Sequence record: PP391266.1
Source: Escherichia phage PJNS034
DNA length: 64,000 nucleotides
Reading direction: 5' to 3' (one strand)
The translations under genes were made by a program, and so were the position numbers. This document shows positions 388-54,282 of this stretch, piece by piece. The notes under the pieces are model-generated. The model was given only the letters and a program-made list of their open reading frames with translations. It did no database searches and had not been told where the DNA came from. How positions within the stretch are numbered: the first letter of the stretch is position 1; each line of letters opens with the position of its first letter.

Positions 388-623
388 TGCTGAAAGTATA
401 TACCTCCCCTATGTGTGGCCCGTGTCATGTCCTGAAGAACCGCATCAAAGCGGCAACTGAAGCTGGTAAAGAACTTCCAGAACATGAAATTGTGGATATC
501 ACGAAGGTAGATAAATCTACTCTACCTGAAGGTGTGCGTACCATTCCAACCATCATCGACGAAGAAACTGGTGATGTGTTCACTGGTATTCAGGCAACCT
601 CTGAACGTATGGGTGTGAAGTAA
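387..623 (+). CDS. glutaredoxin/thioredoxin-fold redoxin (CGPC active site)
   Basis: 78 aa from internal ATG (RBS AGGAAAG); VYTSPMCGPCHVLK then TIPTIIDEETGDVFTG, glutaredoxin-fold pattern. Confidence 0.55.
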   Translation: MLKVYTSPMCGPCHVLKNRIKAATEAGKELPEHEIVDITKVDKSTLPEGVRTIPTIIDEETGDVFTGIQATSERMGVK

Positions 624-847
624 TGGAAGTACGTGACCTCCGTAACGTTCCGATTGACTCGTTGACTCCGCAGGAGATAGCTGGACGTCTGGCTCTGATT
701 TCTGATAGAATGAAGGAAGTCAGCGAGGAGTTCAGCGAGTTACAAGACATGTACTCCGCCCTCGTTGAAGAAACTCAACGACGTGTAAAACGAAAGGCGG
801 AAGAATATGATTCCATTACTCGCAGCGGCGATTCCAGCCGTAGCTAA
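623..847 (+). CDS. hypothetical protein
   Basis: 74 aa ORF, ATG start overlapping preceding stop. Confidence 0.35.
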   Translation: MEVRDLRNVPIDSLTPQEIAGRLALISDRMKEVSEEFSELQDMYSALVEETQRRVKRKAEEYDSITRSGDSSRS

Positions 848-1253
848 AATGTTAGGTATGGCAGCAGGAGCAGCGGCTGCCGGAGGCGGAGCAGCAGCAG
901 GTGGTGCAGCAGCCGCAGGTGCTGGTGGAGCGGCGGCAGGGGGTGCTGCTGCTGGGGCTGGTGCTGGAGGTGCTGCCGCAGGTGGAGCCGCCGCTGGTGG
1001 TTCAGGTGGTGGCATCCTCGGTTCTCTGGGCAATATGTTCGGAGGCGGTGGTGGCGGAGGTGGAATGTCCTTTGAGATGGGTTCGAAGGAAGATGAAGCC
1101 GGAGCCGCTGCTGTCATGAACCAAGCTAAGCAAGGTGCTCAGGGTGGTGCTGGTGGCGGTAACATGGGTTCACTTGATGCTGTAATGGCAATGAATGAAC
1201 GCCAACGCCGTGAAGCCGAAGAAGCTGCCCGTCGCTATGGAGGTGTTCGATAA
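807..1253 (+). CDS. Gly/Ala-rich low-complexity protein
   Basis: 148 aa; ATG with RBS; hydrophobic N-terminus, about 80 residues of G/A repeats encoded by GCN/GGN repeat DNA, charged C-terminus. Confidence 0.4.
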   Translation: MIPLLAAAIPAVAKMLGMAAGAAAAGGGAAAGGAAAAGAGGAAAGGAAAGAGAGGAAAGGAAAGGSGGGILGSLGNMFGGGGGGGGMSFEMGSKEDEAGAAAVMNQAKQGAQGGAGGGNMGSLDAVMAMNERQRREAEEAARRYGGVR

Positions 1254-1376
1254 TGCCTGTCCATAAGGTGAAGGGTGGCTATAAGTGGGGTTCGAAGGGT
1301 AAGGTGTACAAGAAGAAGTCTGACGCTGAGAAGCAAGGACGTGCAGCTTACGCTAATGGTTATCGAGGAGTATTAG

Positions 1377-1685
1377 ATGCCGTCAAGTCCTAACTATGTT
1401 CGTGACTACGACCAAGAACGCAAGACAGCCAAAAAGCGTGGTGAGACTGGTGTTGGTAAAAAGTCTGGTGACGCTCAGCGTCATCGTGCTCGTCGTAAGT
1501 TTGAGAAGGCAACAGGTCGCAAACTCGACAAAGACGAACACGTAGACCACAAACGTACAATTAAGAATGGAGGGACTAACAATCCTAAAAATCTTCGAGT
1601 GCGTAGCGCTTCTGATAATATGGCTGCTGGTGGTCGCAGTGGTAGTAAGGCGGGGAAAGCCGCCGGTGGTCGCAAAGGCAAGTAA
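1377..1685 (+). CDS. HNH endonuclease
   Basis: 102 aa; DEHVDHKRTIKNGGTNNPKNLRV matches HNH core; RBS GGAG before ATG. Confidence 0.55.
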   Translation: MPSSPNYVRDYDQERKTAKKRGETGVGKKSGDAQRHRARRKFEKATGRKLDKDEHVDHKRTIKNGGTNNPKNLRVRSASDNMAAGGRSGSKAGKAAGGRKGK

Positions 1686-2475: not shown

Positions 2476-4161
2476 TTGGCAAATATTTGGACAACTCCGC
2501 TCGCTTTGGAAGCGAAGATAGCAAACATTATCTCCAATCAAGGGAAACATGGTGTTAACTTCAACAAGGCCAAAGCAGCGTTCGGTGTGTTTGTTCTTGC
2601 AGAGAAGATTATAAACATCGACAAAGAGCTTGTCCCTATGCTTCCCATGATGATGCACGTGGGCACTGAATATAAGGCTCCATTCAAAGCGAATGGCGAC
2701 TTTAAGGTGTTTGTGCAGAAATATGCGGATAAGGTAGGGTTAAGTCGTTGCGATGTTGGTGGGCCGTTTACAGCGGTTCATTTCACACCATTTGACCCTT
2801 CCAAGACTGACCGCATGAAGCACGTCATGGCTGACGCTGGATGGGTTCCGGCAGTTTGGAATATCAAGAAGAATCCGATTCAAGAGTTGGATGGTCTTGG
2901 TTATATAGAGCGTCAGAATGCGGAAGCATTGCTTCTTGATAAGTATATCGAGAAGAACATCTTAGGTCATGGTGCTGCATGGACTGAGTTGATGTTGAAA
3001 GAGCTTAAATTCCGTGGACAGCGGAAGATTAGTAAGCTCAAAGAACACATCAGAAAGGCTCGTTATTGGCCTACTTCACCGAAGATTACACCAGATGAAG
3101 ACAAGTTCGTTGGTGATTCAAGAATCGGTGAATTAATTCAATCTCGTATGGTATGGTCACATCGTCGGTCATTACTTGAAGGATTGATTAAACTTGTCAG
3201 ACCAGATGGGAAGATTAGCGCTGATGCAAACAGTTGTGCAACACCCACTGCTCGTATGCGGCATCGTGGTGTGGTCAACATTCCTGCCGCTCGTGCTCCT
3301 TTTGGTTATTGGTGCCGAAGTCTTTTCATGGGAGACTATGACAAGACGGTTAAGAAAGGTTCTGTGTTCTATCCGTTTGGTAAGGAATTGCCAGAAGGAT
3401 TAAGACGTAAACCGGGCACAAACATTGTCGAGGAATACGACAAGAAGAAAGATAAATGGAAACACGCTGGTAAATATCGGAAGTTTGTTCCAGCGGGTCA
3501 ACATATCTTTGTTGGTTATGATGGTGCAGGTCTTGAACTTCGTATGTTGGCTCACTATGTTGGTGATGAAAACTTTACGAACCAGATTCTTCACGGTGAT
3601 ATTCATAGCCACAACCAGTCACTTGCTGGTCTTCCAACTCGTGATAACGCAAAGACGTTTATCTACGCATTCCTGTATGGTGCAGGTGATGCGAAAATCG
3701 GTTCTATCATCGGTGGTACTGCTGATGATGGTGCAGAAATCAAAGCTCGATTCATGAAATCACTTCCGAAACTTGCAGCACTGATTGAGCGTGTTCAACA
3801 GATTGCAGGAACTGATGGTTATGTCGAAGCGATTGATGGTCGTCGTTTGTATCTTCGTAAAGGTACGAATGGTAAGTATCAGACTCACAAAGCATTGAAC
3901 GTCTTGTTACAAGGTGCAGGTGCAATTGTCATGAAGTATGCGATGGCTTGGTTGGATTCTCAGATTAAGAAACAAGGTCTGAGGGCTTACAAGGTTATCG
4001 ACATGCACGATGAAGGGCAATTCTCAGTGCATCCTGATGATGTTCCAGCGGTTCGTGAACTGATGGAAAGTTGTGTTAAATGGGCTGGTGAGTTCTTGAA
4101 AATGAACTGTCCACTGGCATCCGATTCAATTGTTGGTCATGACTGGTTTGACACGCATTGA
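2476..4161 (+). CDS. DNA polymerase, family A, polymerase domain only (T7 gp5-like)
   Basis: 561 aa; motif A GYDGAGLELRMLAHY, motif B RDNAKTFIYAFLYGAG, motif C DMHDEGQF, C-terminal HDWFDTH; N-terminus aligns to T7 gp5 after its exonuclease domain; TTG start with AGGAAG RBS. Confidence 0.88.
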   Translation: MANIWTTPLALEAKIANIISNQGKHGVNFNKAKAAFGVFVLAEKIINIDKELVPMLPMMMHVGTEYKAPFKANGDFKVFVQKYADKVGLSRCDVGGPFTAVHFTPFDPSKTDRMKHVMADAGWVPAVWNIKKNPIQELDGLGYIERQNAEALLLDKYIEKNILGHGAAWTELMLKELKFRGQRKISKLKEHIRKARYWPTSPKITPDEDKFVGDSRIGELIQSRMVWSHRRSLLEGLIKLVRPDGKISADANSCATPTARMRHRGVVNIPAARAPFGYWCRSLFMGDYDKTVKKGSVFYPFGKELPEGLRRKPGTNIVEEYDKKKDKWKHAGKYRKFVPAGQHIFVGYDGAGLELRMLAHYVGDENFTNQILHGDIHSHNQSLAGLPTRDNAKTFIYAFLYGAGDAKIGSIIGGTADDGAEIKARFMKSLPKLAALIERVQQIAGTDGYVEAIDGRRLYLRKGTNGKYQTHKALNVLLQGAGAIVMKYAMAWLDSQIKKQGLRAYKVIDMHDEGQFSVHPDDVPAVRELMESCVKWAGEFLKMNCPLASDSIVGHDWFDTH

Positions 4162-6137: not shown

Positions 6138-6215
6138 CTTGATGTAGCTCAGTTTGGTAGCAGCACTTGCTTTGGGAGCAAGGGGTCGAAGGTTCGAATC
6201 CTTCCATCAAGACCA
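6138..6215 (+). tRNA. tRNA-Pro (anticodon TGG)
   Basis: Manual cloverleaf: 7-bp acceptor CTTGATG/CATCAAG, anticodon arm CTTGC-TTTGGGA-GCAAG, T-arm GAAGG-TTCGAAT-CCTTC, 3' CCA. Confidence 0.7.
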
Positions 6216-6216
6216 A

Positions 6217-6298
6217 GTGGGATTGGCTGAGTGGTCGAAAGCACCTGACTGTAAATCAGGCATATCACGCGGTGGTTCGAATCCATCATCCCACACCA
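6217..6298 (+). tRNA. tRNA-Tyr (anticodon GTA)
   Basis: Acceptor GTGGGAT/ATCCCAC, anticodon arm CCTGA-CTGTAAA-TCAGG, long variable arm, TTCGAAT T-loop, CCA. Confidence 0.7.
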
Positions 6299-6300
6299 AA

Positions 6301-6377
6301 GCGTCACTAACTCAATTGGTTAGAGTAGCGGTCTTTTAAACCGCAGGTTCTGAGTTCGAGTCTCAGGTGGCGTACCA
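6301..6377 (+). tRNA. tRNA-Lys (anticodon TTT)
   Basis: Anticodon arm GCGGT-CTTTTAA-ACCGC, T-arm CTGAG-TTCGAGT-CTCAG, CCA. Confidence 0.7.
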
Positions 6378-6379
6378 AA

Positions 6380-6469
6380 GGAAGTTAGGGCTTTGTGGAA
6401 AGCAATCGGTCTTGAAAACCGACCCACTGTAGCGATATGGTGATGGTTCGACTCCATTAGCTTCCTCCA
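6380..6469 (+). tRNA. tRNA-Ser (anticodon TGA)
   Basis: Anticodon arm TCGGT-CTTGAAA-ACCGA, long variable arm, TTCGACT T-loop, CCA. Confidence 0.65.
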
Positions 6470-6471
6470 AT

Positions 6472-6548
6472 TGTTTCGTAGCTCAGTTGGTAAGAGCGTT
6501 CGGCTGATAACCGAAAGGTCACAAGTTCGAGTCTTGTCGAAACAACCA
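6472..6548 (+). tRNA. tRNA-Ile (anticodon GAT)
   Basis: Canonical cloverleaf: TGTTTCG/CGAAACA acceptor, GCTC-AGTTGGTAA-GAGC D-arm, TTCGG-CTGATAA-CCGAA, TTCGAGT T-loop, CCA. Confidence 0.8.
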
Positions 6549-6551
6549 AAT

Positions 6552-6640
6552 GACGGGTTGGCAGAGTTGGTTTATTGCAGCAGCTTGCTAAGTTGCCGAG
6601 TCGAAAGGCTCCGTGGGTTCGAATCCCACACCCGACGCCA
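6552..6640 (+). tRNA. tRNA-Ser (anticodon GCT)
   Basis: Anticodon arm GCAGC-TTGCTAA-GTTGC, long variable arm, GTGGG-TTCGAAT-CCCAC, CCA; one acceptor mismatch. Confidence 0.55.
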
Positions 6641-6641
6641 A

Positions 6642-6717
6642 GGACGATAAGCACATGTGGATGTGCGGCAGGCTGTTAACCTGATGGCAGTTGGTTCGAA
6701 TCCAACATCGTCCGCCA
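6642..6717 (+). tRNA. tRNA-Asn (anticodon GTT)
   Basis: Acceptor GGACGAT/ATCGTCC, loop CTGTTAA, T-arm GTTGG-TTCGAAT-CCAAC, CCA. Confidence 0.6.
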
Positions 6718-6719
6718 AT

Positions 6720-6794
6720 AGCGAGATAGTTCAGTGGTAGAATATCGGTTTCATACGCCGACCGTCGATGGTTCGATTCCATCTCTCGCTACCA
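6720..6794 (+). tRNA. tRNA-Met (anticodon CAT; elongator, initiator or lysidine-Ile not distinguishable)
   Basis: Acceptor AGCGAGA/TCTCGCT, anticodon arm TCGGT-TTCATAC-GCCGA, T-arm GATGG-TTCGATT-CCATC, CCA. Confidence 0.65.
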
Positions 6795-6810
6795 AACCTC
6801 TTTATCCGAT

Positions 6811-6882
6811 GGGAGTGTCCTTCTGGGAAGGATGTGGATTCCAACCCCACTAAGTAGAGTTCGATTCTTTACACTCCCGCCA
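6811..6882 (+). tRNA. tRNA, anticodon TCC (Gly) or alternatively CCA (Trp) depending on stem register
   Basis: Acceptor GGGAGTG/CACTCCC, loop region GGATTCCAACCCC, T-arm TAGAG-TTCGATT-CTTTA, CCA. Confidence 0.5.
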
Positions 6883-6889
6883 AATCCCT

Positions 6890-6966
6890 AGCCTTGTAGT
6901 GTAGTCTGGTTAGCACACGTGACTTTGACTCACGGAGCTTAGGTTCGAATCCTGACAGGGCTGCCA
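6890..6966 (+). tRNA. tRNA-Gln (anticodon TTG)
   Basis: Acceptor AGCCTTG/CAGGGCT, anticodon arm CGTGA-CTTTGAC-TCACG, T-arm TTAGG-TTCGAAT-CCTGA, CCA. Confidence 0.7.
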
Positions 6967-12047: not shown

Positions 12048-12267
12048 CAGTATATTAACTAAGGTCACTTCGGTGGCCTTTTCTTTCATCTAACTATAGG
12101 CAAAACAATGAAACAGGCTGTATTTGATTTCGCTTCTCGCATGGTCGATAAGCTGACTGCTGATTATGACAAAGCAGAAACCTCTGACGTTGCAGAACGC
12201 ATCATGTCAGAACTCAAAAACTACATCAAAATGCGTGATGATGCACAACGTTCTCTGGAGAAAGCTA

Positions 12268-12807
12268 ATGCGTAAGGTTTATATTGCAGGTCATATGTTA
12301 ACTCGTGGTGCTCAGATGCAACGTGCTGAGGAACGTGAGCTGGTATCTTCTTTGGGTCATCAACTCTACAACCCAATGGACAACAAGGAAATTAACGACA
12401 AGAAGCTCCACAAGGACGATACAGGGCTGGCTGAACGAATCGTTAAGCAAGACACCGACGCTATTTTCTGGGCTGATACAGTGCTGATTGAGCCGCTTGC
12501 TGAGGCAAATGGCACTCTGGTTGAGTTAGGACAGATTAAAGGTATGAAAGACCTCGCCAAGAAGCTGATGGAGTTACCTGCAACAAATGAGATTGAGTTC
12601 GCTGACCAAGCAATTGAATTGCTCAAACGAATCCTAGACCAGAAGGTTGTTGCTCACTTCGAAGATATCCGACGTGTCGAAGGTATCACCGAAACAGGCG
12701 ACCGTCGCTCTCTTGGCATTAACCAGTATGTATATGGTACTGTCCTTGACCTGACAGATGGCAAAGGCTTCACTGAGTTTAAAGACTTGCCGGAGGCTCT
12801 TGCTTGA
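12268..12807 (+). CDS. nucleoside 2-deoxyribosyltransferase / Rcl-like N-glycosidase family protein
   Basis: N-terminal VYIAGHM and C-terminal NGTLVELG match the NDT-family Rossmann and catalytic-Glu motifs; ATG 12268 with GGAG RBS. Confidence 0.55.
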   Translation: MRKVYIAGHMLTRGAQMQRAEERELVSSLGHQLYNPMDNKEINDKKLHKDDTGLAERIVKQDTDAIFWADTVLIEPLAEANGTLVELGQIKGMKDLAKKLMELPATNEIEFADQAIELLKRILDQKVVAHFEDIRRVEGITETGDRRSLGINQYVYGTVLDLTDGKGFTEFKDLPEALA

Positions 12808-13466
12808 ACTGGAGATTAATATGGTCAGTCTTTGCCGTGCTATCCATTCTGTTTGGGTGCGTTGTTTCAAAAGCAAGTTACGAAGTAATGGCGACGTCCC
12901 TAGTGGGCGTCATGTTCGTGATAGGGGTAGCCTTCAAGAAAGCAAGTGCGAATCTTTTGGGGGCTATACTGTGCGCTATGCTTGGGTTGATGAGCTGGCA
13001 AGCTGGATACTACATGAACGCGATTATCAACATCTTCTTATTGCTACCACTCCAGTTATTAGCTTACGCCAATTGGACGACAGGGGTGTCGAAGCGAGAG
13101 CATCACAGGTACTTGGTGGAAACGGTCTGTCGCAAACGATTCTTGATTTACACATGTTGGCTAATTCCTCTCTTGGTAGCCGCATACTTCTCAGGCAGCC
13201 GTTTGTGGGTACACGATGCTGTGACAGCCTCACTTGTGATTGTCGCAACACTTCTCCTCATGTTCAATACCAAAGAGCAATGGCAATTCTGGATTCCATA
13301 CAATCTGGTAGAAGTCTTCATGTGGTTCATCGCAGCGAGTACAGCCCCTGAAATGCTTGCAATTATGTTCATGCGTATTGTATTCTTCATTAACAGTCTG
13401 ATTGGCTATTACGAATGGAGGAACGATGGCAATCCACGGACGCTACTTTCGACAGAAACCCGCTGA
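12804..13466 (+). CDS. PnuC-like (nicotinamide riboside/nucleoside transporter family) membrane protein
   Basis: 220 aa, multiple TM segments, AYANW...KREHH region resembles PnuC signature; start codon uncertain (TTG 12804 or downstream ATG). Confidence 0.4.
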   Translation: MNWRLIWSVFAVLSILFGCVVSKASYEVMATSLVGVMFVIGVAFKKASANLLGAILCAMLGLMSWQAGYYMNAIINIFLLLPLQLLAYANWTTGVSKREHHRYLVETVCRKRFLIYTCWLIPLLVAAYFSGSRLWVHDAVTASLVIVATLLLMFNTKEQWQFWIPYNLVEVFMWFIAASTAPEMLAIMFMRIVFFINSLIGYYEWRNDGNPRTLLSTETR

Positions 13467-13987: not shown

Positions 13988-14024
13988 AGCCCCAAGGGAT
14001 TTCTCCCAAGGGGCTTTTCTTTTA
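13988..14024. terminator. convergent (bidirectional) terminator hairpin
   Basis: AGCCCCAAGGGA-TTTC-TCCCAAGGGGCT with T-rich flanks on both strands, between converging + and - arms. Confidence 0.5.
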
Positions 14025-17000
14025 CGCCATTCCTGCCACAGAACCACCGAGATTCATGTACTCTGCAAGGTTAGTGCCGTAAGCATCAGTTGCTCGTAAG
14101 TTACGAGACTGGAGAGCTTTCTTAACAGCACCATGACCAAGCAAGTGAGCAGAAGCTCGGATGCCTTCCATAGTTACCGGAACACCATCAATAGTCTGAC
14201 CGATGTACTGGTCAAGACCCATGTTTTTGGTACGACGGTCTAACATCTTATTCCAATCTTCAAAAGCCTTTTCCTGTGCTTCTGGAGAGTTCAGGAACTC
14301 CTCTTTCGAGTTAACCCCATACTTACCAGTCCAGTTAGACTTCTCGTTCAGAATAGATTTCTGACCACGACCAACACGACCTTGTGACTTGATAATACCT
14401 AAGTCAACAAGAGCAGGCCATCCAAATTGGTACTTACCGACATAACCGAGAGTGTTCTCGATATCGTACTTACCACCGGATTCACGCTGGCCTAACACGT
14501 CACCATATGCACTCATCATACCTCCTGCATAAGCGCTACCAGCAAACATAGAAGTCAGACCAATTGCACTCAAACCTAATTTCTTAGCCAGTGCATTAGC
14601 TGATTTCTCGTTACGGGCATAACGAACGATAGTTTCTTTATCAGGGTCAACCATCGCATACTCATAGCCTTTATCAAAGGCTACCTCTGGTGAATCAACA
14701 CCTTCTGCCAGTTCGTATGGGTTTACCACTTTGATTTCTGGGTCAGATTCCAGTGCTTTACCATCCAGAGCTTCTGCTGCGGTGTCTACAACTTGCTTAA
14801 CCTGTTCGGTTGGCATGTCTTGCATAGCATCGAGCATATTCTCTACTGGTGCTTCTGGAGTAGGAGTCGGTTCAGGTTGTGGTTCAGTTACCACTGGTTC
14901 TTCACGTACTGGAGCAGCAAAGTCTTCCTCAGCCATAACTACTGGCTTCTGTACTGGTTCATCCATCATCGCCTTAGCAATTGGGGATTCATCAGCACGT
15001 AAGGCTTGTTTGTAGTCTTCCAGACTGTTGTAAACCTTCGGAGCACGTTCTGGGTCATACAGGCCGTAAGCAGATGCGATTGCTCGCTGGTTAGCTGGCC
15101 CCATATAGTTGGTAGTCTCACCTTTCCCGAACACTGCTTTAATCTGGTTACGCATGTCCATAGTGTACAGGCCGTTAGCCCCATTCACCATTTTATCGTA
15201 GCCTTTAGAGCGACGGTATTCGATAGCACCAAGTACATCACCCATCGTCTTCGCCTGAGTCATTACGTCAGTAACAGATTCAGAAGCCTTACCTGCGTTG
15301 ATTGCTTTCTTACCGAAGTTCTGAATTTGTTTCAGCATCGCATTGGATGCAGTAGCAATGTCAGCTTTCAGGGAATCAGCAATTGCAGCCACTTCTTCTG
15401 GAGTGTTACGGGCAATGATTTCATCCAACGATGCACGAGTCTGTGCAGCCGTTTCTTCCAGTGACTTAACTTGCTCTTTCAGTGCCTTGATTGGAGCATC
15501 CAGTTGAGTTGCTTTCTTCTCAAGAATTTCCAGCTTACGTTCGTGTGCTTCTTTGCGTTTCTGCTCAGCAGCTTGTTCACGTTTCTGTTTGTCTTGGAGA
15601 GCCTTCTCTTCCTTCGCCTGTTTATCACGGAGAGCTTTGTCAGCAGCTTCTTGCTTATCGTGCATCTTCTGATATTCAGCAGCCAGTTTACGTTGTTCAC
15701 GTTCCCAAGCCATATCAGCTTTCTCACGAGCAGCTTCGTCTTTCGCTTGAGCTTTCGCTTCATCACGTTTAACACGAGCAGCATCTAACAGTTCTTTCTC
15801 ACGGGCTTTGAAAGCAGCAATTTCCTCAGCATGTGAATCACGCTGTAAACGTTCTTCTGCACGTTGAGTTTCTTTCAGACGTTTCTGTTCAGCACTTGCT
15901 TGTTCTTTCTTCAGACGGTCGCCACGTTGTAACAGCTTGTTAGCAGTTGCACGAAGTTCTTTCTGAGTCAGTGGAGCAGTAGAGCCGAAGGTCTGTGCTT
16001 CAACAACTTGTAATGCTTGTTCTTTCGGAATGCCAAGTGAATCAGCAAAGTCCATCAGGTTTTCATGCTGAGCATAAATCTGATTAACTGCATCATCTTC
16101 AGCTTTACGGGCTACAGTCTCTTCTGGAGTCTCAGCACCTTTAGCCAGAGCATCACGCTCACGTTGCATTGCCTTAATCAGTGAAGCCTTCTCACTATTC
16201 GTAAGCTGACGCATAGAGCCAGTTACAGGGTCAATGTAAGGTGAAGTCAGGTCGTCCATTACGAACTGGTCAAGGCCGTACTTACTTGCCAAACCGGAAA
16301 TATGTTCGTTCTGGGTTGTGATGTTTTTAGCTGCTTCATCACGGATACCTGCTTTAACTTCCTCTGCCTCTGTCTTAGCTTTCTCAGCCTGTGCATTACG
16401 AGCTTCCTCACGAGCACGTTGAGCCAATTCAGTAATCTCACCAGCATCACGGATGTTAGCGATTTGGTCTTCCGGTACACCTGCACGACGAGCACGTTCT
16501 TCCAATGCTTGACGTTCAACTTGTGCTGCACGGTTACGAATGGTTTCAGTTTCACGAATAGCTGCACCCAATACTGCATCCAGACCACGAGGTGCTGGAG
16601 CATTTGGAGCAGGAGCCGCTGGAGTAGGTTCACCAGTTGCCAGTGCTTGCAGGTCAGATGGGTCACGAACTACAGGGGCAGGTTCTGGAACAACAGTAGG
16701 CTCTACAACCGTTGGTTCAGGAGTACGAGCGTATTCCATTGAAGCCAGAGATTGTAATGCTGCTTGTTCTTCTGCACGACTAATGAATCGAGCAGCCTGT
16801 TCAGAGTTAACTTCCGCAATCTGAGCATCAGACCAACCTTTGTTACGAAGCACTTCTGCCTGTACAGGAGAAACACCACCATCAGGTGCTGGCTGAGTCA
16901 TTTCTGGAGTAACAACTGGTTCAGGAGTTACAGTCTGTTCTGGAGCTACAGGTGGTACATCTGGAGTCGGCTCTGGAGCAACATCTGCTGGTGGCGGAGT

Positions 17001-18854
17001 TGGTTCTTCTGGAGCACGAGCAGCCATAACACGGTTCTGAGCATCTGAGTCACGAGCGATTGCACGTAAGCCTTCGAAGTCCTGAGCCATACGAGCACGA
17101 GCTTTACCTTCACGAGAACGAGCGATGATACCCGGTAATTCAGTTGCACCGAAGGTTTTCAGAGCTACTACTGGCTTAGCCACTTTACCGATTGTCGCTG
17201 GTTGTGAAGCATAATCTTCAATACCGTAACGATAAGCAGGGTCTTGGTTTGCCAACATCTTATCTTTGTAGATAAAGGATGCAGCATTCATTGCTGGGTT
17301 AAAACCTTTGTCACCAACAGTGAAACCATAGGTATCAAGTTGACGAGAGAGGTTTTCAGCACGTTGACCAATTGCATCGTAAATCAGTGAACGGTCAGAA
17401 GCGGTATCACGCATTGCTTTCACAATAGCGTTTGCATCGTTCATCATGTTACGCAGATTACGTTGCTGAGATATAGAAGCAGCAGGGTCAATCTCACCCA
17501 TATCTTGACGCAGTTTCAGTTCCTGAATTGAATCATTCAACTGGTTAACTACATCTTCGAAAGCTGATACGTCTTGTGCTTGTGCTTTCTTACCATTACG
17601 ACGGGCAGTAGCCAATTCTTCTGGAGAGAACACGCGAGAACCGAAGTCCAAGTCACCAAGTGCTGATGCACCTGAAATCTTACGACGACGAGCAGCAGAG
17701 CGAATGTCACCTTCAGTCAGACCCATCATAGCTGCGGCAGAGCCGTAATCATCAGACAGTTCAGACAAGCCACGTTTCACACCAATGTCACGCATTGCTT
17801 CTGGAGAAATATCAACACCAGCATCTTTCAAATCACCAAACGCTTTATAGAAAGCAGATGGGCCGATGTTTTCATTTACCTGAGCACGTTCCGTTACCAG
17901 TGCTTCACGCTGTTCTGGAGTAAGGTCTTTACCTACGAGGCTATTCAGTTCTTCATCACGGTGAAGGTTACGCATAGCTTCAACTTGGTCACGTTCAGTC
18001 AGGGCTGGATTACCACCTGCTTCACGGATGTTACGGTCATTACGACCTGCAAAGCTACGAACTGCTGGAGCAATTTCCATTGGGGCACGAATACCACCAG
18101 AAACCAGACCACCAGTTACTGCATAATCCAACAGGTTTTGTGGGTCAACAGCAAGTTCCTGACGACGACCCATTTCGTATGCTGCACCAGAAGCGCCTGC
18201 ACCGATTGCACCAGTTGCTACGGTTTCCGCCATTCGTCCAAGAGCAGTTTTACCGACAGTTGCAAAAGGCTTCCCATAGGGAATAAGCCCTAGAGCGGCT
18301 GCGGCAGTACCAGCAGTACGAGCGATATCCGTGTTACCAGCACCCTCTTGTTCAGCGTAGATAGAACCAGTGGTAGGGCCATATGAAGTAGCACCGAATG
18401 CTAAGTCACCAGCCATTGTTGGTAAGCCAGATGCAGTTTGTTCTGCAACAAACGTACCCAAGTCACCTAAACCACGAATGTCACGCCAGTTTTCCACGGC
18501 ATAACGTTGGTTCTTCTCACCATGCTCACGTAACTTACGGGCAAGTTCACGGTCATGATAAGACTGTTTAGTAACTTCACCTTCTTGCGTCTGACCAGCT
18601 TTCTGAGCCAAATCAGCCTGACGTGCTGCTGCTGCACCAAACAAACCTGATGCCAGTTCAGTACGTCCACGAGTAAACGCATTAGAGATGTTACCGAAGA
18701 ATCCACGGTCTTCTGTTGGAGCTTCTTGTACAGGCAGGGGAGCCTGAGAGATGTTTTGTTCCTGAGCCATTGGGACATTGCCCGTAGGTTGTGGAGAGCC
18801 ACCGCTTCCACTTTCCAATTGACGCAGTAATTCTGGGTCTGTAATTGGAGTCAT
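14022..18854 (-). CDS. large virion protein (tape-measure/internal-core-like) with C-terminal lytic transglycosylase-like domain
   Basis: 1610 aa; Pro-rich linkers, long Lys/Glu coiled-coil, C-terminal RESGG...GYVGKYQFG resembling SLT E-S...G-x-x-G-x-x-Q-F catalytic block (compare T7 gp16 N-domain). Confidence 0.55.
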   Translation of the reverse strand: MTPITDPELLRQLESGSGGSPQPTGNVPMAQEQNISQAPLPVQEAPTEDRGFFGNISNAFTRGRTELASGLFGAAAARQADLAQKAGQTQEGEVTKQSYHDRELARKLREHGEKNQRYAVENWRDIRGLGDLGTFVAEQTASGLPTMAGDLAFGATSYGPTTGSIYAEQEGAGNTDIARTAGTAAAALGLIPYGKPFATVGKTALGRMAETVATGAIGAGASGAAYEMGRRQELAVDPQNLLDYAVTGGLVSGGIRAPMEIAPAVRSFAGRNDRNIREAGGNPALTERDQVEAMRNLHRDEELNSLVGKDLTPEQREALVTERAQVNENIGPSAFYKAFGDLKDAGVDISPEAMRDIGVKRGLSELSDDYGSAAAMMGLTEGDIRSAARRRKISGASALGDLDFGSRVFSPEELATARRNGKKAQAQDVSAFEDVVNQLNDSIQELKLRQDMGEIDPAASISQQRNLRNMMNDANAIVKAMRDTASDRSLIYDAIGQRAENLSRQLDTYGFTVGDKGFNPAMNAASFIYKDKMLANQDPAYRYGIEDYASQPATIGKVAKPVVALKTFGATELPGIIARSREGKARARMAQDFEGLRAIARDSDAQNRVMAARAPEEPTPPPADVAPEPTPDVPPVAPEQTVTPEPVVTPEMTQPAPDGGVSPVQAEVLRNKGWSDAQIAEVNSEQAARFISRAEEQAALQSLASMEYARTPEPTVVEPTVVPEPAPVVRDPSDLQALATGEPTPAAPAPNAPAPRGLDAVLGAAIRETETIRNRAAQVERQALEERARRAGVPEDQIANIRDAGEITELAQRAREEARNAQAEKAKTEAEEVKAGIRDEAAKNITTQNEHISGLASKYGLDQFVMDDLTSPYIDPVTGSMRQLTNSEKASLIKAMQRERDALAKGAETPEETVARKAEDDAVNQIYAQHENLMDFADSLGIPKEQALQVVEAQTFGSTAPLTQKELRATANKLLQRGDRLKKEQASAEQKRLKETQRAEERLQRDSHAEEIAAFKAREKELLDAARVKRDEAKAQAKDEAAREKADMAWEREQRKLAAEYQKMHDKQEAADKALRDKQAKEEKALQDKQKREQAAEQKRKEAHERKLEILEKKATQLDAPIKALKEQVKSLEETAAQTRASLDEIIARNTPEEVAAIADSLKADIATASNAMLKQIQNFGKKAINAGKASESVTDVMTQAKTMGDVLGAIEYRRSKGYDKMVNGANGLYTMDMRNQIKAVFGKGETTNYMGPANQRAIASAYGLYDPERAPKVYNSLEDYKQALRADESPIAKAMMDEPVQKPVVMAEEDFAAPVREEPVVTEPQPEPTPTPEAPVENMLDAMQDMPTEQVKQVVDTAAEALDGKALESDPEIKVVNPYELAEGVDSPEVAFDKGYEYAMVDPDKETIVRYARNEKSANALAKKLGLSAIGLTSMFAGSAYAGGMMSAYGDVLGQRESGGKYDIENTLGYVGKYQFGWPALVDLGIIKSQGRVGRGQKSILNEKSNWTGKYGVNSKEEFLNSPEAQEKAFEDWNKMLDRRTKNMGLDQYIGQTIDGVPVTMEGIRASAHLLGHGAVKKALQSRNLRATDAYGTNLAEYMNLGGSVAGMA

Positions 18855-29180: not shown

Positions 29181-30065
29181 TTAGGCAGTACGTTGCCAGA
29201 TGAACATCGCAAAGCCTGGGTCATATGTATCGAAACGAGCGTTACCACCAGTGTTCTGAGAACGGAAGTCGATTCGGTGTGAGTGATTACCAGCCGCAGA
29301 GGTGTTGGTATCAATATACAGGAATCGGTCGTTATCGTTATCTGAACCTTTGGAACCGAGGTTACGGTTATAGCCACCCGGAGTTGGTTCGATAAAAGGC
29401 AGTGACCATACAGTCGTGTTTGCTTCGATGTAGTAACGGTCACGGTATGGGTGGGTGTGGTTCCCAGCATCCTGGGTCTGACCTACAACTTGGTGGCTGT
29501 GAGCAGGTAAGTTACCTTCAACCAACTGAGTTTTATAGAAGCCCGGAGTCTTACCAACGTTAGGGAAGTTGATAGAATCACGACCATCTGAGTCAGAGCC
29601 TTGACCTACAATATAACGACCAGCAGCAATACGAACCCAAGTACCTACGCCAAGTAACTGAGCAGGGTTTTGGTTTACCATAGTGAAGTACACAGAGCCT
29701 ACAGGCCATGCTTGTCCACGAGCTGCTGCTGAGTTGAAGTAAGCAAGAGTTACTGCATCCTGAGGAGCAGCAGGGTTGGATACGTTCTGAAGACGGTTGC
29801 CACCACAGTTCATGGTCTTATTAGCTGCCATCGTTACAGAACCATTGATAGTCACATCACCATTCGTGTTAGTAGCTGAGAACGTCTTATCAAGGTTATT
29901 CAACTTGTCAGCACTCATTGTGACAACTTTGTTGATATTCGGGAAGGTAGTTTTCAGTACCTGCTTAATCAAACGGAGGTGGTCATCACCTTCTTTAATC
30001 AAGTCAACGTTACGCGGGAATGATGGATTGAGTTGGTCAATAGTGTTAGCTACTTCTACACTCAT
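29181..30065 (-). CDS. tail fiber protein
   Basis: 294 aa; DAVTLAYFN and G-rich beta region reminiscent of phage fiber/collar domains. Confidence 0.45.
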   Translation of the reverse strand: MSVEVANTIDQLNPSFPRNVDLIKEGDDHLRLIKQVLKTTFPNINKVVTMSADKLNNLDKTFSATNTNGDVTINGSVTMAANKTMNCGGNRLQNVSNPAAPQDAVTLAYFNSAAARGQAWPVGSVYFTMVNQNPAQLLGVGTWVRIAAGRYIVGQGSDSDGRDSINFPNVGKTPGFYKTQLVEGNLPAHSHQVVGQTQDAGNHTHPYRDRYYIEANTTVWSLPFIEPTPGGYNRNLGSKGSDNDNDRFLYIDTNTSAAGNHSHRIDFRSQNTGGNARFDTYDPGFAMFIWQRTA

Positions 30066-30310
30066 TTGCGTTTGTCCTCTTTCAGTTCTCGAAGTGCATC
30101 TTTCACTGCATCAAGAGCTTGGTTATTCAGGGCGACTTGCTTTTCCAGAGAAGCTACAACAGTAGACAAACTTGATTGCTGCTCTTGCTTCGCTTTCAGG
30201 ATTTGCACGTCAGTATAGAGAGTTAAGGCTAATCCAAGAGTAATAACAGATAGGGATGTTGCCACCCCTACCAACCACTCTTTCATAACCCCTTGTGGTT
30301 TGTTGTCCAT
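30062..30310 (-). CDS. small membrane protein
   Basis: 82 aa; TM segment WLVGVATSLSVITLGLALTLY, coiled-coil tail. Confidence 0.4.
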   Translation of the reverse strand: MDNKPQGVMKEWLVGVATSLSVITLGLALTLYTDVQILKAKQEQQSSLSTVVASLEKQVALNNQALDAVKDALRELKEDKRK

Positions 30311-46580: not shown

Positions 46581-46688
46581 GGTGGCTCTTATGGTCGAGT
46601 ATGGTGAAGAAGATTTTGTTAAGGCGGCTAATCGCTTCTGGCTTTGGGTCGCTATCGTTGGGACTGTAATTATCTGGGCGGTGTGCTG

Positions 46689-46886
46689 ATGGAAGTATTA
46701 ACAATGTTCGCTGTGTTCGTCATAGAGCTTCTCTGGGTGCATCCTATGGCATTCTTCGCAGACTTAGGTGCTGCGGGTCACTTTGGCTGGTCTTTGGCCT
46801 TCCTGATGGTGTACGGGCTGTTTATCGCTACGTTGCCATACAATATCCTCAAGCTATTCATTAAACGTAAGGAAATCCCTGCATGA
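46689..46886 (+). CDS. small membrane protein
   Basis: About 65 aa, two hydrophobic helices; start uncertain. Confidence 0.35.
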   Translation: MEVLTMFAVFVIELLWVHPMAFFADLGAAGHFGWSLAFLMVYGLFIATLPYNILKLFIKRKEIPA

Positions 46887-47796: not shown

Positions 47797-48051
47797 ATGG
47801 CTAAGATTGCAACTGTGTGGTTTAACAAAACTGGTACTAACACTGTGTACCTCAAGCTGAATGGTAAGCTGCACAAGACTGAGGTGACTATCCCTCGTAC
47901 TCACCTTATCAGCGGTCACATGCTAAATGATGCTGTTAAGAAGAAGCTGGTCGAAGAAGCGATTCGTGCTGACCTCGGCTGTGGCGTAGTTATCGCTGAC
48001 AACCTCAAGAACTATCAACACAATGGGGTACGCTTCCAGTATGGAAAATAA
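47797..48051 (+). CDS. hypothetical protein
   Basis: 84 aa from ATG with RBS AAGGA. Confidence 0.4.
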   Translation: MAKIATVWFNKTGTNTVYLKLNGKLHKTEVTIPRTHLISGHMLNDAVKKKLVEEAIRADLGCGVVIADNLKNYQHNGVRFQYGK

Positions 48052-48052
48052 A

Positions 48053-48469
48053 ATGAAGCGTGTGCTTAACCTGTCTGCCGATAAGGTGAACGGGTATGTG
48101 TTTAAAGATAGCCCGTCTATCTACTGGTCATGGTGGCATGTATTGCTCACCGTGGCCTTTGTTGTATTGGTGGTGTTCGCTTTGTGTGCTCCATTCAGTA
48201 AGGCACACGCTGCATCATTCCCTGCTGGTGAGCATTTACAATGCCGCATTGAATTAGAAAGTGTTGGTGGTGGTCGTAAGCTGACGTTTAAATCTTACGA
48301 TGATTCACACATCAAACTTGCTAATAGTAATACTCTGGTGCTTCGCGGTGATGCTCAAGTGCCTGAGTCAACTGTTAACCTGAACAATGGTGAGTTGTTC
48401 GCAACAAGGGGTAGCTGGACTTATCGCGGCCTCTGTAAAAACGTAGATAATATCAGGATAAACCCATGA
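48053..48469 (+). CDS. membrane-anchored protein (N-terminal TM)
   Basis: TM segment WSWWHVLLTVAFVVLVVFALCAPF then soluble domain. Confidence 0.4.
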   Translation: MKRVLNLSADKVNGYVFKDSPSIYWSWWHVLLTVAFVVLVVFALCAPFSKAHAASFPAGEHLQCRIELESVGGGRKLTFKSYDDSHIKLANSNTLVLRGDAQVPESTVNLNNGELFATRGSWTYRGLCKNVDNIRINP

Positions 48470-54128: not shown

Positions 54129-54282
54129 TGGGTATTAATAAGACCATGACTACAGCGTTCTTTATCCTCGCTGTAGCATCGCCAATACTTGCCTGTTTCA
54201 ATACAACAGCAGCAGCATTTAGTGCTGGCATGGCTGTCTTCGCAATGCTTTGTTATGTTGTAGCGAACGGTTGATATACTCA

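What the first reader, a model, noticed from the sequence alone, without database searches (positions are those of the whole stretch)
807..1253. Gly/Ala-rich low-complexity protein encoded by a GC-rich (GCN)n repeat
The segment at about 850-1090 is a GC-rich triplet repeat open in three frames (Gly/Ala on plus, Pro/Ala on minus). The plus-strand ORF has a proper RBS and ATG, a hydrophobic N-terminus and a charged C-terminus, so it is probably real, but the repeat could also be a recombination or slippage hotspot.
Basis: seen in the sequence. Interest (0 to 1): 0.4.

Follow-up and report, generated by a model that had tools for sequence, protein, structure and literature searches.

The report
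Conserved Gly/Ala-rich disordered phage protein
The GC-rich stretch is a real, evolutionarily conserved phage gene for a small, floppy protein that is 60% glycine and alanine; it has no known relatives or function, and it is an oddity rather than a breakthrough.

Summary
Window 807-1253 (+) is a 148-aa ORF that is 60% Gly+Ala, inside a segment of GC 0.68-0.69 against about 0.45 in the flanks. The window matches Escherichia phage PJNS034.

Seven syntenic orthologues were recovered: one in Pantoea phage TacPo2, where it is unannotated, and six on SRA-derived contigs. Only the plus frame is open end to end in all of them, and all indels are multiples of three. GC1/GC2/GC3 is 0.79/0.68/0.34 and dN/dS is 0.09-0.30. 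The gene is therefore real, and its GC-richness comes from the Gly (GGN) and Ala (GCN) codons it encodes.

The DNA is not a microsatellite. No exact 12-mer repeats, and synonymous codons are scrambled. The tract is a loose (GGAAA)n peptide repeat of 35-51 aa.

No curated family and none of 1.84 billion representative proteins resembles it.

The conserved layout is a weakly hydrophobic N-terminal helix (not transmembrane-grade), the Gly/Ala spacer, GGILGSLG plus poly-Gly, and charged C-terminal helices. My best guess, held at low confidence, is a flexible tether or adaptor made together with the replication genes. Function remains untested.

The parts
807..1253 (+). Coding sequence of the 148-aa Gly/Ala-rich protein (stop TAA at 1251-1253; the last A of the stop is the first base of the next gene's ATG at 1253)
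   Evidence: Orthologues are open in this frame only. dN/dS is 0.09-0.30.
794..803 (+). Purine-rich Shine-Dalgarno-like stretch (aaggcggaag) ahead of the ATG. It lies inside the 3' end of the upstream gene.
   Evidence: Clade B has GAGGT at the equivalent place.
623..847 (+). Upstream 74-aa helical protein (weak match to phrog_4469). Its last 41 nt overlap the start of the Gly/Ala ORF in another frame, so the two are probably translationally coupled and it is a possible partner.
   Evidence: In the overlap the Gly/Ala frame is conserved (AAIPA[VI]AK), while the tail of the 74-aa protein diverges and carries indels.
807..875 (+). Residues 1-23: conserved, weakly hydrophobic N-terminal helix, M(IPLL/FW)AAIPA[VI]AK[ML][LF]G.AAG
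   Evidence: Alignment. AlphaFold2 helices at 3-6 and 9-23. Kyte-Doolittle 1.77, but Hessa-scale insertion energy of +4.1 to +5.3 kcal/mol.
858..1007 (+). Residues 18-67: pure Gly/Ala tract, a loose (GGAAA)n repeat. Its length varies among relatives (35-51 aa) and it is predicted disordered.
1008..1040 (+). Residues 68-78: the GGILGSLGNMF motif. GGIL..L is invariant in all 8 orthologues.
   Evidence: Short AlphaFold2 helix at 71-78.
1041..1064 (+). Residues 79-86: poly-Gly run (a Gly-dominated stretch in all relatives, in some interrupted by E, D or M), followed by a Met/Phe-rich acidic patch, MSFEMGSKEDE (1065-1097)
   Evidence: No conserved internal ribosome-binding site.
1086..1151 (+). Residues 94-115: Ala-rich predicted helix
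1164..1238 (+). Residues 120-144: best-predicted, charged C-terminal helix, SLDAVMAMNERQRREAEEAARRY. N130, R134, R135, E136 and E138 are invariant.
   Evidence: pLDDT 82-85
740..1117 (-). Minus-strand Pro/Ala ORF (125 aa), judged a compositional by-product and not a gene
   Evidence: The start is not conserved, the frame is closed over the conserved C-terminal 45 codons, and it runs against a tightly coupled + strand operon.
901..1119 (+). ORF in the +2 frame (72 aa), a compositional by-product
   Evidence: pN/pS is 1.4-5.0 in this frame.

Best explanation
This is a genuine protein-coding gene restricted to the PJNS034/TacPo2 lineage of enterobacterial phages. It encodes a 130-148-aa, largely disordered protein. 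The local GC-richness is not a DNA-level feature. It follows from a run of Gly (GGN) and Ala (GCN) codons whose third positions stay AT-rich like the rest of the genome. SHOWN: the frame, its conservation, purifying selection on Gly/Ala identity, the conserved modular layout, and co-orientation and start/stop coupling with the nucleotide-metabolism and replication genes. INFERRED, with low confidence: the protein acts as a flexible tether or adaptor. In this model the conserved, weakly hydrophobic N-terminal helix docks onto a membrane surface or a hydrophobic groove of a partner. The uncharged (GGAAA)n tract plus poly-Gly act as an entropic spacer whose composition matters but whose exact length does not. 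The conserved charged C-terminal helices bind a second partner. The partner could be the translationally coupled 74-aa helical protein upstream or a component of the replication machinery. My confidence that it is a real, selected gene is about 0.9. My confidence in the tether mechanism is about 0.3. The single figure given for this explanation (0.55) is a compromise between the two.
For: Gene reality. Seven orthologues are syntenic between the 74-aa gene and the HNH-like gene. Only the +1 frame is open end to end in every one. All indels are multiples of three. GC1/GC2/GC3 is 0.79/0.68/0.34. dN/dS is 0.09-0.30 overall and 0.03-0.13 in the tract, against 1.0-4.1 in the shifted + frames. The start ATG carries an SD-like motif and the stop overlaps the next start. 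In the 41-nt overlap with the upstream gene, the Gly/Ala frame is the conserved one. An independent gene caller called the ORF on all four contigs that hold it complete. Layout. Conserved termini flank a spacer of variable length (35-51 aa). AlphaFold2 gives helices at 9-23, 94-115 and 120-144, with pLDDT below 50 over 26-69 and 80-86. Context. The gene sits in a + strand block comprising dUTPase/DCD, MazG-like, thioredoxin, 74-aa, Gly/Ala ORF, HNH-like and family-A polymerase genes, which ends at a terminator-like hairpin at 1987-2010. In LUZ24-like relatives the equivalent gap between the two polymerase halves is annotated with several small membrane proteins. Phage phi29 uses small early membrane proteins (p1, p16.7) to anchor replication (PMC4974454).
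Against: There is no expression, peptide or localisation evidence. No homologue of known function exists: Pfam, PHROGs, NCBIfam, PADLOC, PDB sequences and 1.84 billion representative proteins all gave nothing. The mechanism therefore rests only on composition and layout. The N-terminal helix is too weakly hydrophobic to be a stable membrane anchor (+4.1 to +5.3 kcal/mol against -2.1 to +1.1 for control segments; scale values and two of the control sequences were recalled from memory). No DNA-binding or other fold is recognisable at the C-terminus. dN/dS cannot separate the + frame from the minus frame that shares its wobble positions, so frame assignment rests on ORF integrity, start/stop conservation and strand context. 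Only 8 sequences from one narrow lineage are available.
Confidence: 0.55

Rival explanations
1. The segment is primarily a DNA-level slippage or recombination hotspot (a contingency-type repeat), and protein length variation is the point of it.
For: Tract length differs among relatives, at 35, 36, 42, 42, 50 and 51 aa. The indels sit inside the tract. In sample SRR26913649 two contigs end on either side of the tract, and DRR023333's contig starts inside it. TRF reports imperfect 15-42-nt units.
Against: No exact repeat of 12 nt or more exists in any orthologue. Repeated 9-mers are at or below the synonymous-shuffle mean in five of the six complete orthologues (window 2 against 10.3; TacPo2 3 against 2.8). 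Codon third positions are scrambled, which suppresses slippage. The length differences separate genomes with dS of 0.6-1.6, so this is not hypervariation. All changes are in frame.
Confidence: 0.1
2. It is a small membrane-active protein, for example a holin, pinholin or antiholin, or a SAR-like, superinfection-exclusion or depolarising protein. The Gly/Ala-rich N-terminal half would enter the membrane and the charged C-terminus would stay cytoplasmic.
For: It is small, with a hydrophobic Gly/Ala-rich N-terminus and a highly charged C-terminus. Kyte-Doolittle hydropathy of 1.77 is just above the usual 1.6 cut-off. No endolysin/holin cassette was recognised elsewhere in the window. LUZ24-like relatives carry a putative holin and other TM proteins between the polymerase halves, and an N4-like relative has an endolysin next to its polymerase.
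Against: On the Hessa scale the best 19-residue segment scores +4.1 to +5.3 kcal/mol. Three TM segments of the same phage and two textbook SAR/pinholin helices score -2.1 to +1.1. The helix contains one or two Pro residues and a Lys. No adjacent lysis enzyme was found. More conventional TM proteins exist elsewhere in the genome, for example at 30062-30310, 46644-46886 and 48023-48469.
Confidence: 0.12
3. It is a decoy or jamming substrate for host AAA+ proteases or chaperones. A hydrophobic N-terminal degron-like peptide would feed a 'slippery' Gly-Ala plus poly-Gly tract into ClpXP, Lon or FtsH. Alternatively, the Gly/Met/Phe block would mimic chaperone low-complexity tails.
For: Glycine-alanine repeats and poly-Gly both inhibit unfolding by E. 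coli ClpXP (PMC9531181). Gly/Met/Phe-rich low-complexity regions in a prokaryote-wide survey came from chaperones (PMC6821194), and the conserved core here is GNMFGGGGGGGGMSFEMG / GGGMGGGMMDM. Selection preserves Gly/Ala identity rather than mere flexibility.
Against: The support is purely compositional. In the cited work the inhibitory tracts act next to a stably folded domain, and no stable domain is predicted here. No recognised degron was identified. No homology to any known protease or chaperone inhibitor was found.
Confidence: 0.08
4. It is a virion-internal or ejection protein whose Gly/Ala tract lets it pass through the tail channel.
For: Distant DNA matches to the tract fall in internal virion proteins of Klebsiella podophages and in Gly/Ala-rich proteins just upstream of giant virion proteins in PEp14 and Skulduggery.
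Against: Those matches are compositional only. With composition correction, profile scores fall within the range of shuffled decoys. Those proteins are 2-2.5 times larger and lie in structural modules. This gene lies in the + strand nucleotide-metabolism and replication operon, while most of the structural and packaging PHROG matches obtained here lie on the opposite strand between about 14 and 36 kb.
Confidence: 0.08
5. The real gene is the minus-strand Pro/Ala ORF (740-1117), or the locus is dual-coding.
For: The minus frame that shares wobble positions is open for 74-143 codons in all relatives and shows the same low pN/pS as the + frame (0.17 in the tract, 0.59 in the C-part).
Against: That frame necessarily mirrors the + frame's wobble positions, so the low ratio is expected. 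Its first start codon differs in type and position among relatives, and it carries 1-4 stops within the interval. It is closed over window 1118-1253, where the + protein is best conserved. All neighbouring genes are on the + strand with overlapping starts and stops. Only one promoter-like site was found on the minus strand of 1-2600, at 2072-2045, about 1 kb from that ORF's start.
Confidence: 0.03
6. The GC-rich segment is a structured RNA or DNA element (regulatory hairpins) rather than, or in addition to, coding sequence.
For: The RNA of 850-1090 folds better than dinucleotide shuffles (-113.6 against -102.3 kcal/mol, z = -2.9).
Against: Against synonymous-codon permutations that keep the protein fixed, five of six orthologues are unremarkable (z +0.5 to -1.5), and only L027 reaches -2.9. 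There is no Rfam match (best E 0.26, far below gathering scores). GCN and GGN codons are inherently self-complementary.
Confidence: 0.03

Closest known systems
Gly-Ala repeat (GAr) of Epstein-Barr virus EBNA1, and engineered GAr/poly-Gly tracts tested on ClpXP
   Same: A viral protein with a long tract made only of Gly and Ala. Such tracts are documented to weaken the grip of AAA+ unfoldases, including E. coli ClpXP (PMC9531181).
   Different: There is no sequence homology. The tract here is 35-51 aa with a loose GGAAA period (EBNA1's is several-fold longer; from my own knowledge). No stable folded domain adjoins the tract. The host is a bacterium, and no effect on proteolysis has been tested.
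Phage phi29 early membrane proteins p16.7 and p1 (replication organisers)
   Same: Small early or middle phage proteins encoded among replication genes, with a hydrophobic N-terminus and a helical C-terminal part. They serve as anchors or tethers for the replication machinery (PMC4974454).
   Different: There is no homology. p16.7 is an integral membrane protein, whereas the N-terminus here is not transmembrane-grade. No DNA-binding domain is recognisable, and the Gly/Ala spacer has no counterpart.
Holins, pinholins and SAR (signal-anchor-release) domains
   Same: Small size, a Gly/Ala-rich weakly hydrophobic N-terminal helix and a charged C-terminal tail.
   Different: The insertion energy is far worse than for SAR or pinholin control helices. 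There is no adjacent endolysin. The 50-aa pure Gly/Ala tract and the poly-Gly run are not holin features.
Gly/Ala-rich virion-module proteins of other phages (Erwinia phage PEp14 gp25, Pseudomonas phage Skulduggery gp26, Grimontviridae phage PKM.Lu.22.1 287-aa protein)
   Same: Long Gly/Ala(/Thr) tracts. In PEp14 gp25 and Skulduggery gp26 these are combined with a Glu/Arg/Gln-rich charged helix (with a Gly/Met-rich start in PEp14) and an Ala/Ile-rich hydrophobic segment. DNA identity is about 70-78% over 76-130 nt of the tract.
   Different: They are 287-352 aa, the module order is reversed, and they sit in structural gene blocks (in PEp14 and Skulduggery next to giant proteins). No homology survives composition correction.
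Chaperone low-complexity regions (GroEL C-terminal Gly-Gly-Met tail, DnaJ Gly/Phe region)
   Same: The conserved block after the tract has Gly/Met/Phe-rich composition.
   Different: The resemblance is in composition only. The block is internal rather than a terminal tail, and no chaperone domain is attached.

Membership tests
Any curated protein family (Pfam-A, PHROGs v4, NCBIfam, PADLOC) or solved structure | Significant profile match | tested here: not met
   Pfam, PHROGs and NCBIfam gave no hit. PADLOC gave only one non-significant match (LeoBC, E 0.22). PDB sequences gave only a non-significant match (E 1.2) to an antibody Fab chain with poly-Ala stretches. phmmer against 1.84 billion representatives gave 0 hits. 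That result is informative, because phmmer does detect all orthologues at that database size (E 4e-45 to 5e-9).
Holin / pinholin / SAR-domain protein | At least one transmembrane-grade hydrophobic helix | tested here: not met
   The best 19-residue window scores +4.1 to +5.3 kcal/mol on the Hessa scale, against -2.1 to +1.1 for controls (scale values and two of the control sequences recalled from memory). Kyte-Doolittle is borderline at 1.77.
Holin / pinholin / SAR-domain protein | Small size with a charged, hydrophilic C-terminus | tested here: met
   130-148 aa, with C-terminal NERQRREAEEAARRY
Holin / pinholin / SAR-domain protein | Genetic linkage to an endolysin or spanin | tested here: not met
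   The neighbours are MazG-like, thioredoxin, a 74-aa helical protein, a 46-aa basic protein, an HNH-like protein and a family-A polymerase. No lysis enzyme was recognised within the + block.
phi29 p16.7-like membrane-anchored replication organiser | Integral N-terminal transmembrane anchor | tested here: not met
phi29 p16.7-like membrane-anchored replication organiser | C-terminal DNA-binding domain and interaction with replication proteins | not testable with these tools
   Only two predicted helices at moderate confidence. Binding assays are needed.
Slippage-prone simple-sequence repeat (contingency locus) | Perfect or near-perfect tandem DNA repeat | tested here: not met
   TRF units match at only 69-82%. 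The longest exact repeat is 8-11 nt and no 12-mer is repeated.
Slippage-prone simple-sequence repeat (contingency locus) | Repeat-number variation among closely related genomes or within populations | tested here: inconclusive
   The tract is 35-51 aa among genomes with dS of 0.6-1.6. Assemblies break at the tract in two samples, but no read-level data are available.
EBNA1-type Gly-Ala repeat (protease-evading tract) | Long tract composed only of Gly and Ala | tested here: met
   Residues 19-65 of the window protein are exclusively Gly and Ala.
EBNA1-type Gly-Ala repeat (protease-evading tract) | Tract impairs unfolding or degradation of the carrier protein by an AAA+ protease | not testable with these tools
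   Requires in vitro ClpXP, Lon or FtsH assays. Precedent for ClpXP is in PMC9531181.
Gly-rich class II microcin / bacteriocin precursor | Double-glycine leader, with export and immunity genes nearby | tested here: not met
   No leader-like N-terminus precedes a GG cleavage motif (the sequence starts directly with the hydrophobic helix). The neighbours are nucleotide-metabolism and replication genes. The leader criterion was applied from my own knowledge.

The most novel reading that the evidence does not exclude
The protein is a bacterial-virus counterpart of the EBNA1 Gly-Ala repeat. In this reading, a hydrophobic N-terminal peptide engages a host AAA+ protease (ClpXP, ClpAP, Lon or FtsH) or a chaperone. 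The uncharged Gly-Ala tract and poly-Gly run are too 'slippery' to be pulled through, so the machine is stalled or titrated during the replication phase and labile phage proteins are protected. Selection for Gly/Ala identity, as opposed to any flexible linker composition, and the Gly/Met/Phe block fit this reading, but nothing tests it.
Probability: 0.07. Interest if true: 0.75.

Novelty: new member of a known kind. Interest (0 to 1): 0.3.

Why it matters
The practical gain is small but real. A conserved gene is missing from the TacPo2 annotation, and probably one of two overlapping genes is missing from the PJNS034 record.

The case also shows how to validate a low-complexity ORF that standard tools mishandle. 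BLAST with composition adjustment and low-complexity filtering fails even on its true orthologue. dN/dS cannot distinguish the coding frame from the antisense frame that shares its wobble positions.

Biologically, it is a clean example of selection acting on amino-acid composition (Gly/Ala identity) while synonymous sites are saturated and scrambled. This argues that a pure Gly/Ala tract has a specific role in a coliphage. If that role turned out to be jamming host proteases or chaperones, or tethering replication, it would add a new type of small host-interaction protein. As it stands, it is one more phage ORFan of unknown function.

Tried and rejected
1. BLASTP and tblastn. Composition adjustment or low-complexity masking hid even the TacPo2 orthologue, and the tblastn confirmation step in the search for related loci likewise confirmed none of 600 pattern matches. 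These nulls are uninformative.

2. Word-indexed protein searches, full-length and C-terminal profile. Both saturated at 8000 candidates with no hit.

3. I first blamed HMMER's bias filters for the empty phmmer result. A local test showed phmmer detects all orthologues, so I withdrew that explanation. The orthologues are simply not in those libraries.

4. Searches for lineage relatives in IMG/VR and JGI metagenomes via the polymerase and the 74-aa neighbour found nothing. The 25 viral loci with the HNH-like neighbour lack a Gly/Ala ORF (and the scan logic).

5. Degenerate DNA patterns. The C-terminal motif gave one chance hit. The N-terminal motif gave 33 hits, all unrelated proteins sharing AAIPAIAK.LG: ECF-sigma-like helix-turn-helix regions, a phage HTH protein, a large Arg/Ala/Thr-rich ORF of unknown nature, and a multi-pass membrane protein.

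6. Internal translation start after the poly-Gly run. SD-like GGAGG occurs at usable spacing in about half the orthologues, which matches the 50% expected from random Gly codons. Rejected.

7. Selected RNA structure. Rejected against a synonymous-codon null.

8. Homology to Gly/Ala-rich virion proteins of other phages. Compositional only.

9. Sec signal peptide. The conserved P-A-[VI]-A-K resembles an AxA site, but the preceding segment is only 10-13 residues with no basic n-region. Rejected by inspection, using my own knowledge of signal-peptide anatomy.

10. Syntenic Gly/Ala ORFs in LUZ24-like and N4-like polymerase relatives. None found.

The single-sequence model (pLDDT 60) is too weak for fold search.

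12. The lysis cassette of the phage could not be located.
Full report
WHAT IS THERE. Window 807-1253 (+) is an ATG-initiated ORF of 148 codons. GC rises to 0.68-0.69 at 826-1050, against about 0.45 on either side. The product is 30% Gly and 30% Ala. No other ORF in the window exceeds 0.29 G+A. Across the GC-rich core two other frames are also open: a +2-frame ORF at 901-1119 and a minus-strand Pro/Ala ORF at 740-1117. Two points need refining. The 'triplet repeat' is codon periodicity rather than a DNA tandem repeat: Tandem Repeats Finder finds only 12-42-nt units at 69-82% match. The ribosome-binding site in the window is modest.

WHERE IT COMES FROM. Exact look-ups of neighbouring proteins identify the window as Escherichia phage PJNS034, 65,715 bp. 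The only close relative among 50,697 phage records is Pantoea phage TacPo2, at 86% DNA identity over two-thirds of the first 4.2 kb and 94% polymerase identity. The next-nearest polymerases, from LUZ24-like Pseudomonas phages and N4-like Grimontviridae, are about 49% identical. The gene lies in a tightly packed + strand block: dUTPase/dCTP-deaminase, MazG-like pyrophosphatase, thioredoxin, a 74-aa helical protein, the Gly/Ala ORF, a 46-aa basic protein, an HNH-like protein, a DUF5499-like protein and, further on, a family-A DNA polymerase. Its exonuclease domain is a separate upstream gene. Starts and stops overlap throughout, and a terminator-like hairpin follows at 1987-2010.

IS IT A GENE? 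TacPo2 has an unannotated 362-nt gap at the syntenic place. It holds a 130-aa ORF with the same architecture. Six further contigs from SRA-derived assemblies carry the locus. An independent gene caller called ORFs of 133, 143, 143 and 148 aa there, plus two that are cut by contig ends. Five lines of evidence support the + frame:

- It is the only frame open end to end in all relatives.
- All indels are multiples of three.
- GC1/GC2/GC3 is 0.79/0.68/0.34, so the GC-richness sits entirely in the amino-acid-determining positions while the wobble position stays AT-rich.
- Nei-Gojobori dN/dS is 0.09-0.30 overall and 0.03-0.13 in the tract, with dS often saturated. The same alignment read in the shifted + frames gives 1.0-4.1.
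- In the 41 nt where the ORF overlaps the end of the upstream gene, the Gly/Ala frame is conserved (AAIPA[VI]AK), while the other protein's tail diverges and has indels.

One caveat emerged. The minus frame that shares wobble positions with the + frame shows the same low pN/pS, 0.17 in the tract and 0.59 in the C-part. dN/dS therefore cannot exclude that frame. It is excluded on other grounds. Its start is not conserved. It contains stops in every relative. It is closed over the best-conserved C-terminal 45 codons. It also runs against a coupled + strand operon. The codon alignment was derived from the + frame protein alignment, which favours that frame somewhat, but the effect is far too large to be an artefact of that. 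I put the probability that this is a real, selected gene at about 0.9.

IS IT A SLIPPAGE HOTSPOT? Only weakly. Tract length, measured from AK..G to GGIL, is 35 aa in TacPo2, 36 in L027, 42 in L028 and L029, 50 in the window and 51 in L031. But no orthologue contains an exact repeated 12-mer. The longest exact repeat is 8-11 nt. Repeated 9-mers are at or below the mean of 1000 synonymous-codon shuffles in five of the six complete orthologues, for example 2 against 10.3 in the window, with 4.4% of shuffles as low; TacPo2 is the exception at 3 against 2.8. The repeat thus exists at the protein level and is written in scrambled codons, which is the opposite of a contingency locus. One hint of instability remains. 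In sample SRR26913649 one contig ends at window-equivalent nt 855 and another starts at 1006, so exactly the tract is missing. Another sample's contig starts inside the tract. This could reflect within-sample heterogeneity or GC-related coverage loss. Only the reads can tell.

IS IT AN RNA ELEMENT? The segment folds better than dinucleotide shuffles (z = -2.9). Against synonymous-codon permutations that keep the protein fixed, five of six orthologues are unremarkable, and Rfam has no credible match. The stable fold is a by-product of GCN/GGN self-complementarity.

ANATOMY OF THE PROTEIN.
- Residues 1-23: a conserved helix, M(IPLL/FW)AAIPA[VI]AK[ML][LF]G.AAG.
- Residues 18-67: a tract of Gly and Ala only (one Ser near its end), with Gly autocorrelation peaking at lag 5 (0.33-0.41 in four of six orthologues), that is a loose (GGAAA)n repeat. 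pLDDT is below 50 from residue 26 onwards.
- Residues 68-78: GGILGSLGNMF, in which GGIL..L is invariant.
- Residues 79-86: a poly-Gly run.
- Then a Met/Phe-rich acidic patch (MSFEMGSKEDE, or GGGMMDMAKGNDQD in the other clade).
- Residues 94-115: an Ala-rich helix.
- Residues 120-144: a charged helix, SLDAVMAMNERQRREAEEAARRY, with pLDDT 82-85 and N130, R134, R135, E136 and E138 invariant.

There is no Cys or His and at most one Trp, and net charge is about zero. The N-terminus is hydrophobic but not transmembrane-grade. Kyte-Doolittle is borderline (1.77). On the Hessa biological scale the best 19-residue window costs +4.1 to +5.3 kcal/mol. Three TM segments of the same phage and two textbook SAR/pinholin helices score -2.1 to +1.1. 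The scale values and the two textbook sequences were recalled from memory.

RELATIVES AND KNOWN FAMILIES. Nothing matches in Pfam, PHROGs or NCBIfam, and PADLOC and PDB sequences give only non-significant hits. phmmer against 1.84 billion representative proteins gave no hit. I first attributed this to composition filters. A local control showed that phmmer finds every orthologue at that database size, with E from 4e-45 to 5e-9. The null therefore means that nothing else as similar as TacPo2's protein exists there. The lineage's own proteins are not in that collection. DNA-pattern scans for the conserved terminal motifs in IMG/VR, JGI metagenomes and GTDB genomes returned only unrelated proteins. 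Syntenic regions of LUZ24-like and N4-like relatives have no Gly/Ala ORF, although the HNH-like and MazG-like neighbours persist in the N4-like phage. A distant blastn search does find Gly/Ala-coding tracts in other phage genes: internal virion proteins of Klebsiella podophages, and 287-352-aa proteins in virion modules of PEp14, Skulduggery and a Grimontviridae phage. Composition-corrected profile scores for those proteins fall within the range of shuffled decoys. The family is thus an ORFan confined to the PJNS034/TacPo2 lineage.

HOW IT MOST LIKELY WORKS. The following are shown:
- It is a selected protein with conserved termini.
- Its Gly/Ala spacer is constrained in composition but free in length.
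- It is co-oriented and coupled with genes of nucleotide metabolism and replication.

The mechanism is inferred at about 0.3 confidence. I read it as a flexible tether or adaptor. Its N-terminal hydrophobic helix would dock onto a membrane surface or a partner's groove, and its C-terminal charged helices would bind a second partner, with the uncharged Gly/Ala and poly-Gly segment acting as an entropic spacer. The translationally coupled 74-aa helical protein is the obvious candidate partner.

There is precedent for small membrane-associated proteins inside replication blocks. Phage phi29 uses p1 and p16.7 in this way (PMC4974454). In LUZ24-like phages, TM proteins are annotated between the polymerase halves.

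The rival readings, with my estimates, are:
- a membrane-active, holin-like protein (0.12; weakened by the insertion-energy result);
- a DNA-level hotspot as a secondary property (0.1);
- a protease or chaperone decoy (0.08; GAr and poly-Gly tracts do impair ClpXP, PMC9531181, and Gly/Met/Phe low-complexity regions are typical of chaperones, PMC6821194);
- a virion-internal protein (0.08);
- the minus-strand ORF (0.03);
- an RNA element (0.03).

NOVELTY AND INTEREST. Gly, Ala and Pro are the residues most enriched in phage low-complexity regions (PMC6821194), and phage genomes are full of lineage-specific small genes. The kind is therefore familiar, and this is a new, uncatalogued family within it. 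The unusual points are the purity and length of the Gly/Ala tract in a genome of about 45% GC, the clear selection on composition, and the scrambled codons. Interest is modest at 0.3. It would rise sharply only if the protease or chaperone-jamming reading, or a replication-tethering role, were demonstrated.

Noticed in passing
L001 3793-4185 (Pantoea phage TacPo2, PP496723.1 record coordinates about 15675-16067): The TacPo2 GenBank record leaves a 362-nt gap between TacPo2_28 and TacPo2_29. It contains the 130-aa orthologue of the Gly/Ala ORF, so the gene is missing from that annotation.
   Followed up: yes
window 623-1253: PJNS034 protein accessions run WWV91940 (MazG-like), 41 (thioredoxin), 43 (46-aa), 44 (HNH-like), 45 and 46. 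Only one accession (WWV91942) is left for two conserved overlapping ORFs, the 74-aa ORF and the Gly/Ala ORF. Neither exact sequence, nor two shorter-start versions of the Gly/Ala ORF, is in the protein collection. At most one of the two seems to be annotated in the source record.
   Followed up: partly
L077 end (equivalent to window 855), L030 start (equivalent to window 1006), L032 start (about window 947): Metagenome assemblies break at the Gly/Ala tract. In SRR26913649 two contigs flank it exactly and the tract itself is unassembled; the DRR023333 contig begins inside it. The cause could be within-sample length heterogeneity or coverage loss.
   Followed up: partly
window 1253-1393: The 46-aa basic protein (MPVHKVKGGYKWGSKGKVYKKK..., phrog_31267) is absent from TacPo2 but present in both clades of the lineage. 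Near-identical copies occur in unrelated phage contexts: after a lysozyme and a TM protein and before a large uncharacterised gene in L034/L035, and upstream of an Amidase_2 gene in L033. The cluster has 29 members. It looks like a small, widely shuffled gene.
   Followed up: partly
window 1377-1685: The 102-aa HNH-like protein (phrog_4590; weak Pfam HNH_3 match) ends in a basic Gly-rich tail, GGRSGSKAGKAAGGRKGK. It is conserved in many phage contexts, including next to the polymerase of the N4-like Cronobacter phage A24, where it is annotated as an HNH endonuclease.
   Followed up: partly
window 6138-6966; L001 8673-9590: There is a cluster of 10 tRNA genes: Pro, Tyr, Lys, Ser, Ile, Ser, Asn, Met, Trp and Gln. 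TacPo2 has 11, with Glu and Phe but no Pro. Neither phage encodes tRNA-Gly or tRNA-Ala, so the Gly/Ala ORF depends on host tRNAs.
   Followed up: no
L027 857-1408 and window 2476-4161; L075 2378-6632: The family-A DNA polymerase is split. A separate 183-aa exonuclease-domain gene lies about eight small genes upstream of the 561-aa polymerase gene, as in LUZ24-like phages. There the gap holds about ten small ORFs, including annotated TM proteins and a putative holin.
   Followed up: partly
L072 2493-3476 (PEp14 gp25), L073 2323-3378 (Skulduggery gp26): These are about 330-350-aa proteins just upstream of giant virion proteins. They combine a Glu/Arg/Gln-rich charged helix (preceded by a Gly/Met-rich start in PEp14), a very long Gly/Ala/Thr tract and an Ala/Ile-rich hydrophobic segment. 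These are the same kinds of module as in the window protein, but in reverse order. No homology survives composition correction.
   Followed up: partly
window 14022-18854 (-), and the whole window: No endolysin/holin cassette could be recognised. The only lysozyme-like signal is the C-terminal 160 residues of the 1610-aa protein (phrog_27932, tail lysozyme). Candidate small TM proteins lie at 30062-30310, 46644-46886, 48023-48469 and 54128-54274.
   Followed up: partly
window 12166-13466: Adjacent genes encode a nucleoside 2-deoxyribosyltransferase (phrog_1817) and a PnuC-like nicotinamide mononucleotide transporter (phrog_1880) at the end of the + strand block.
   Followed up: no
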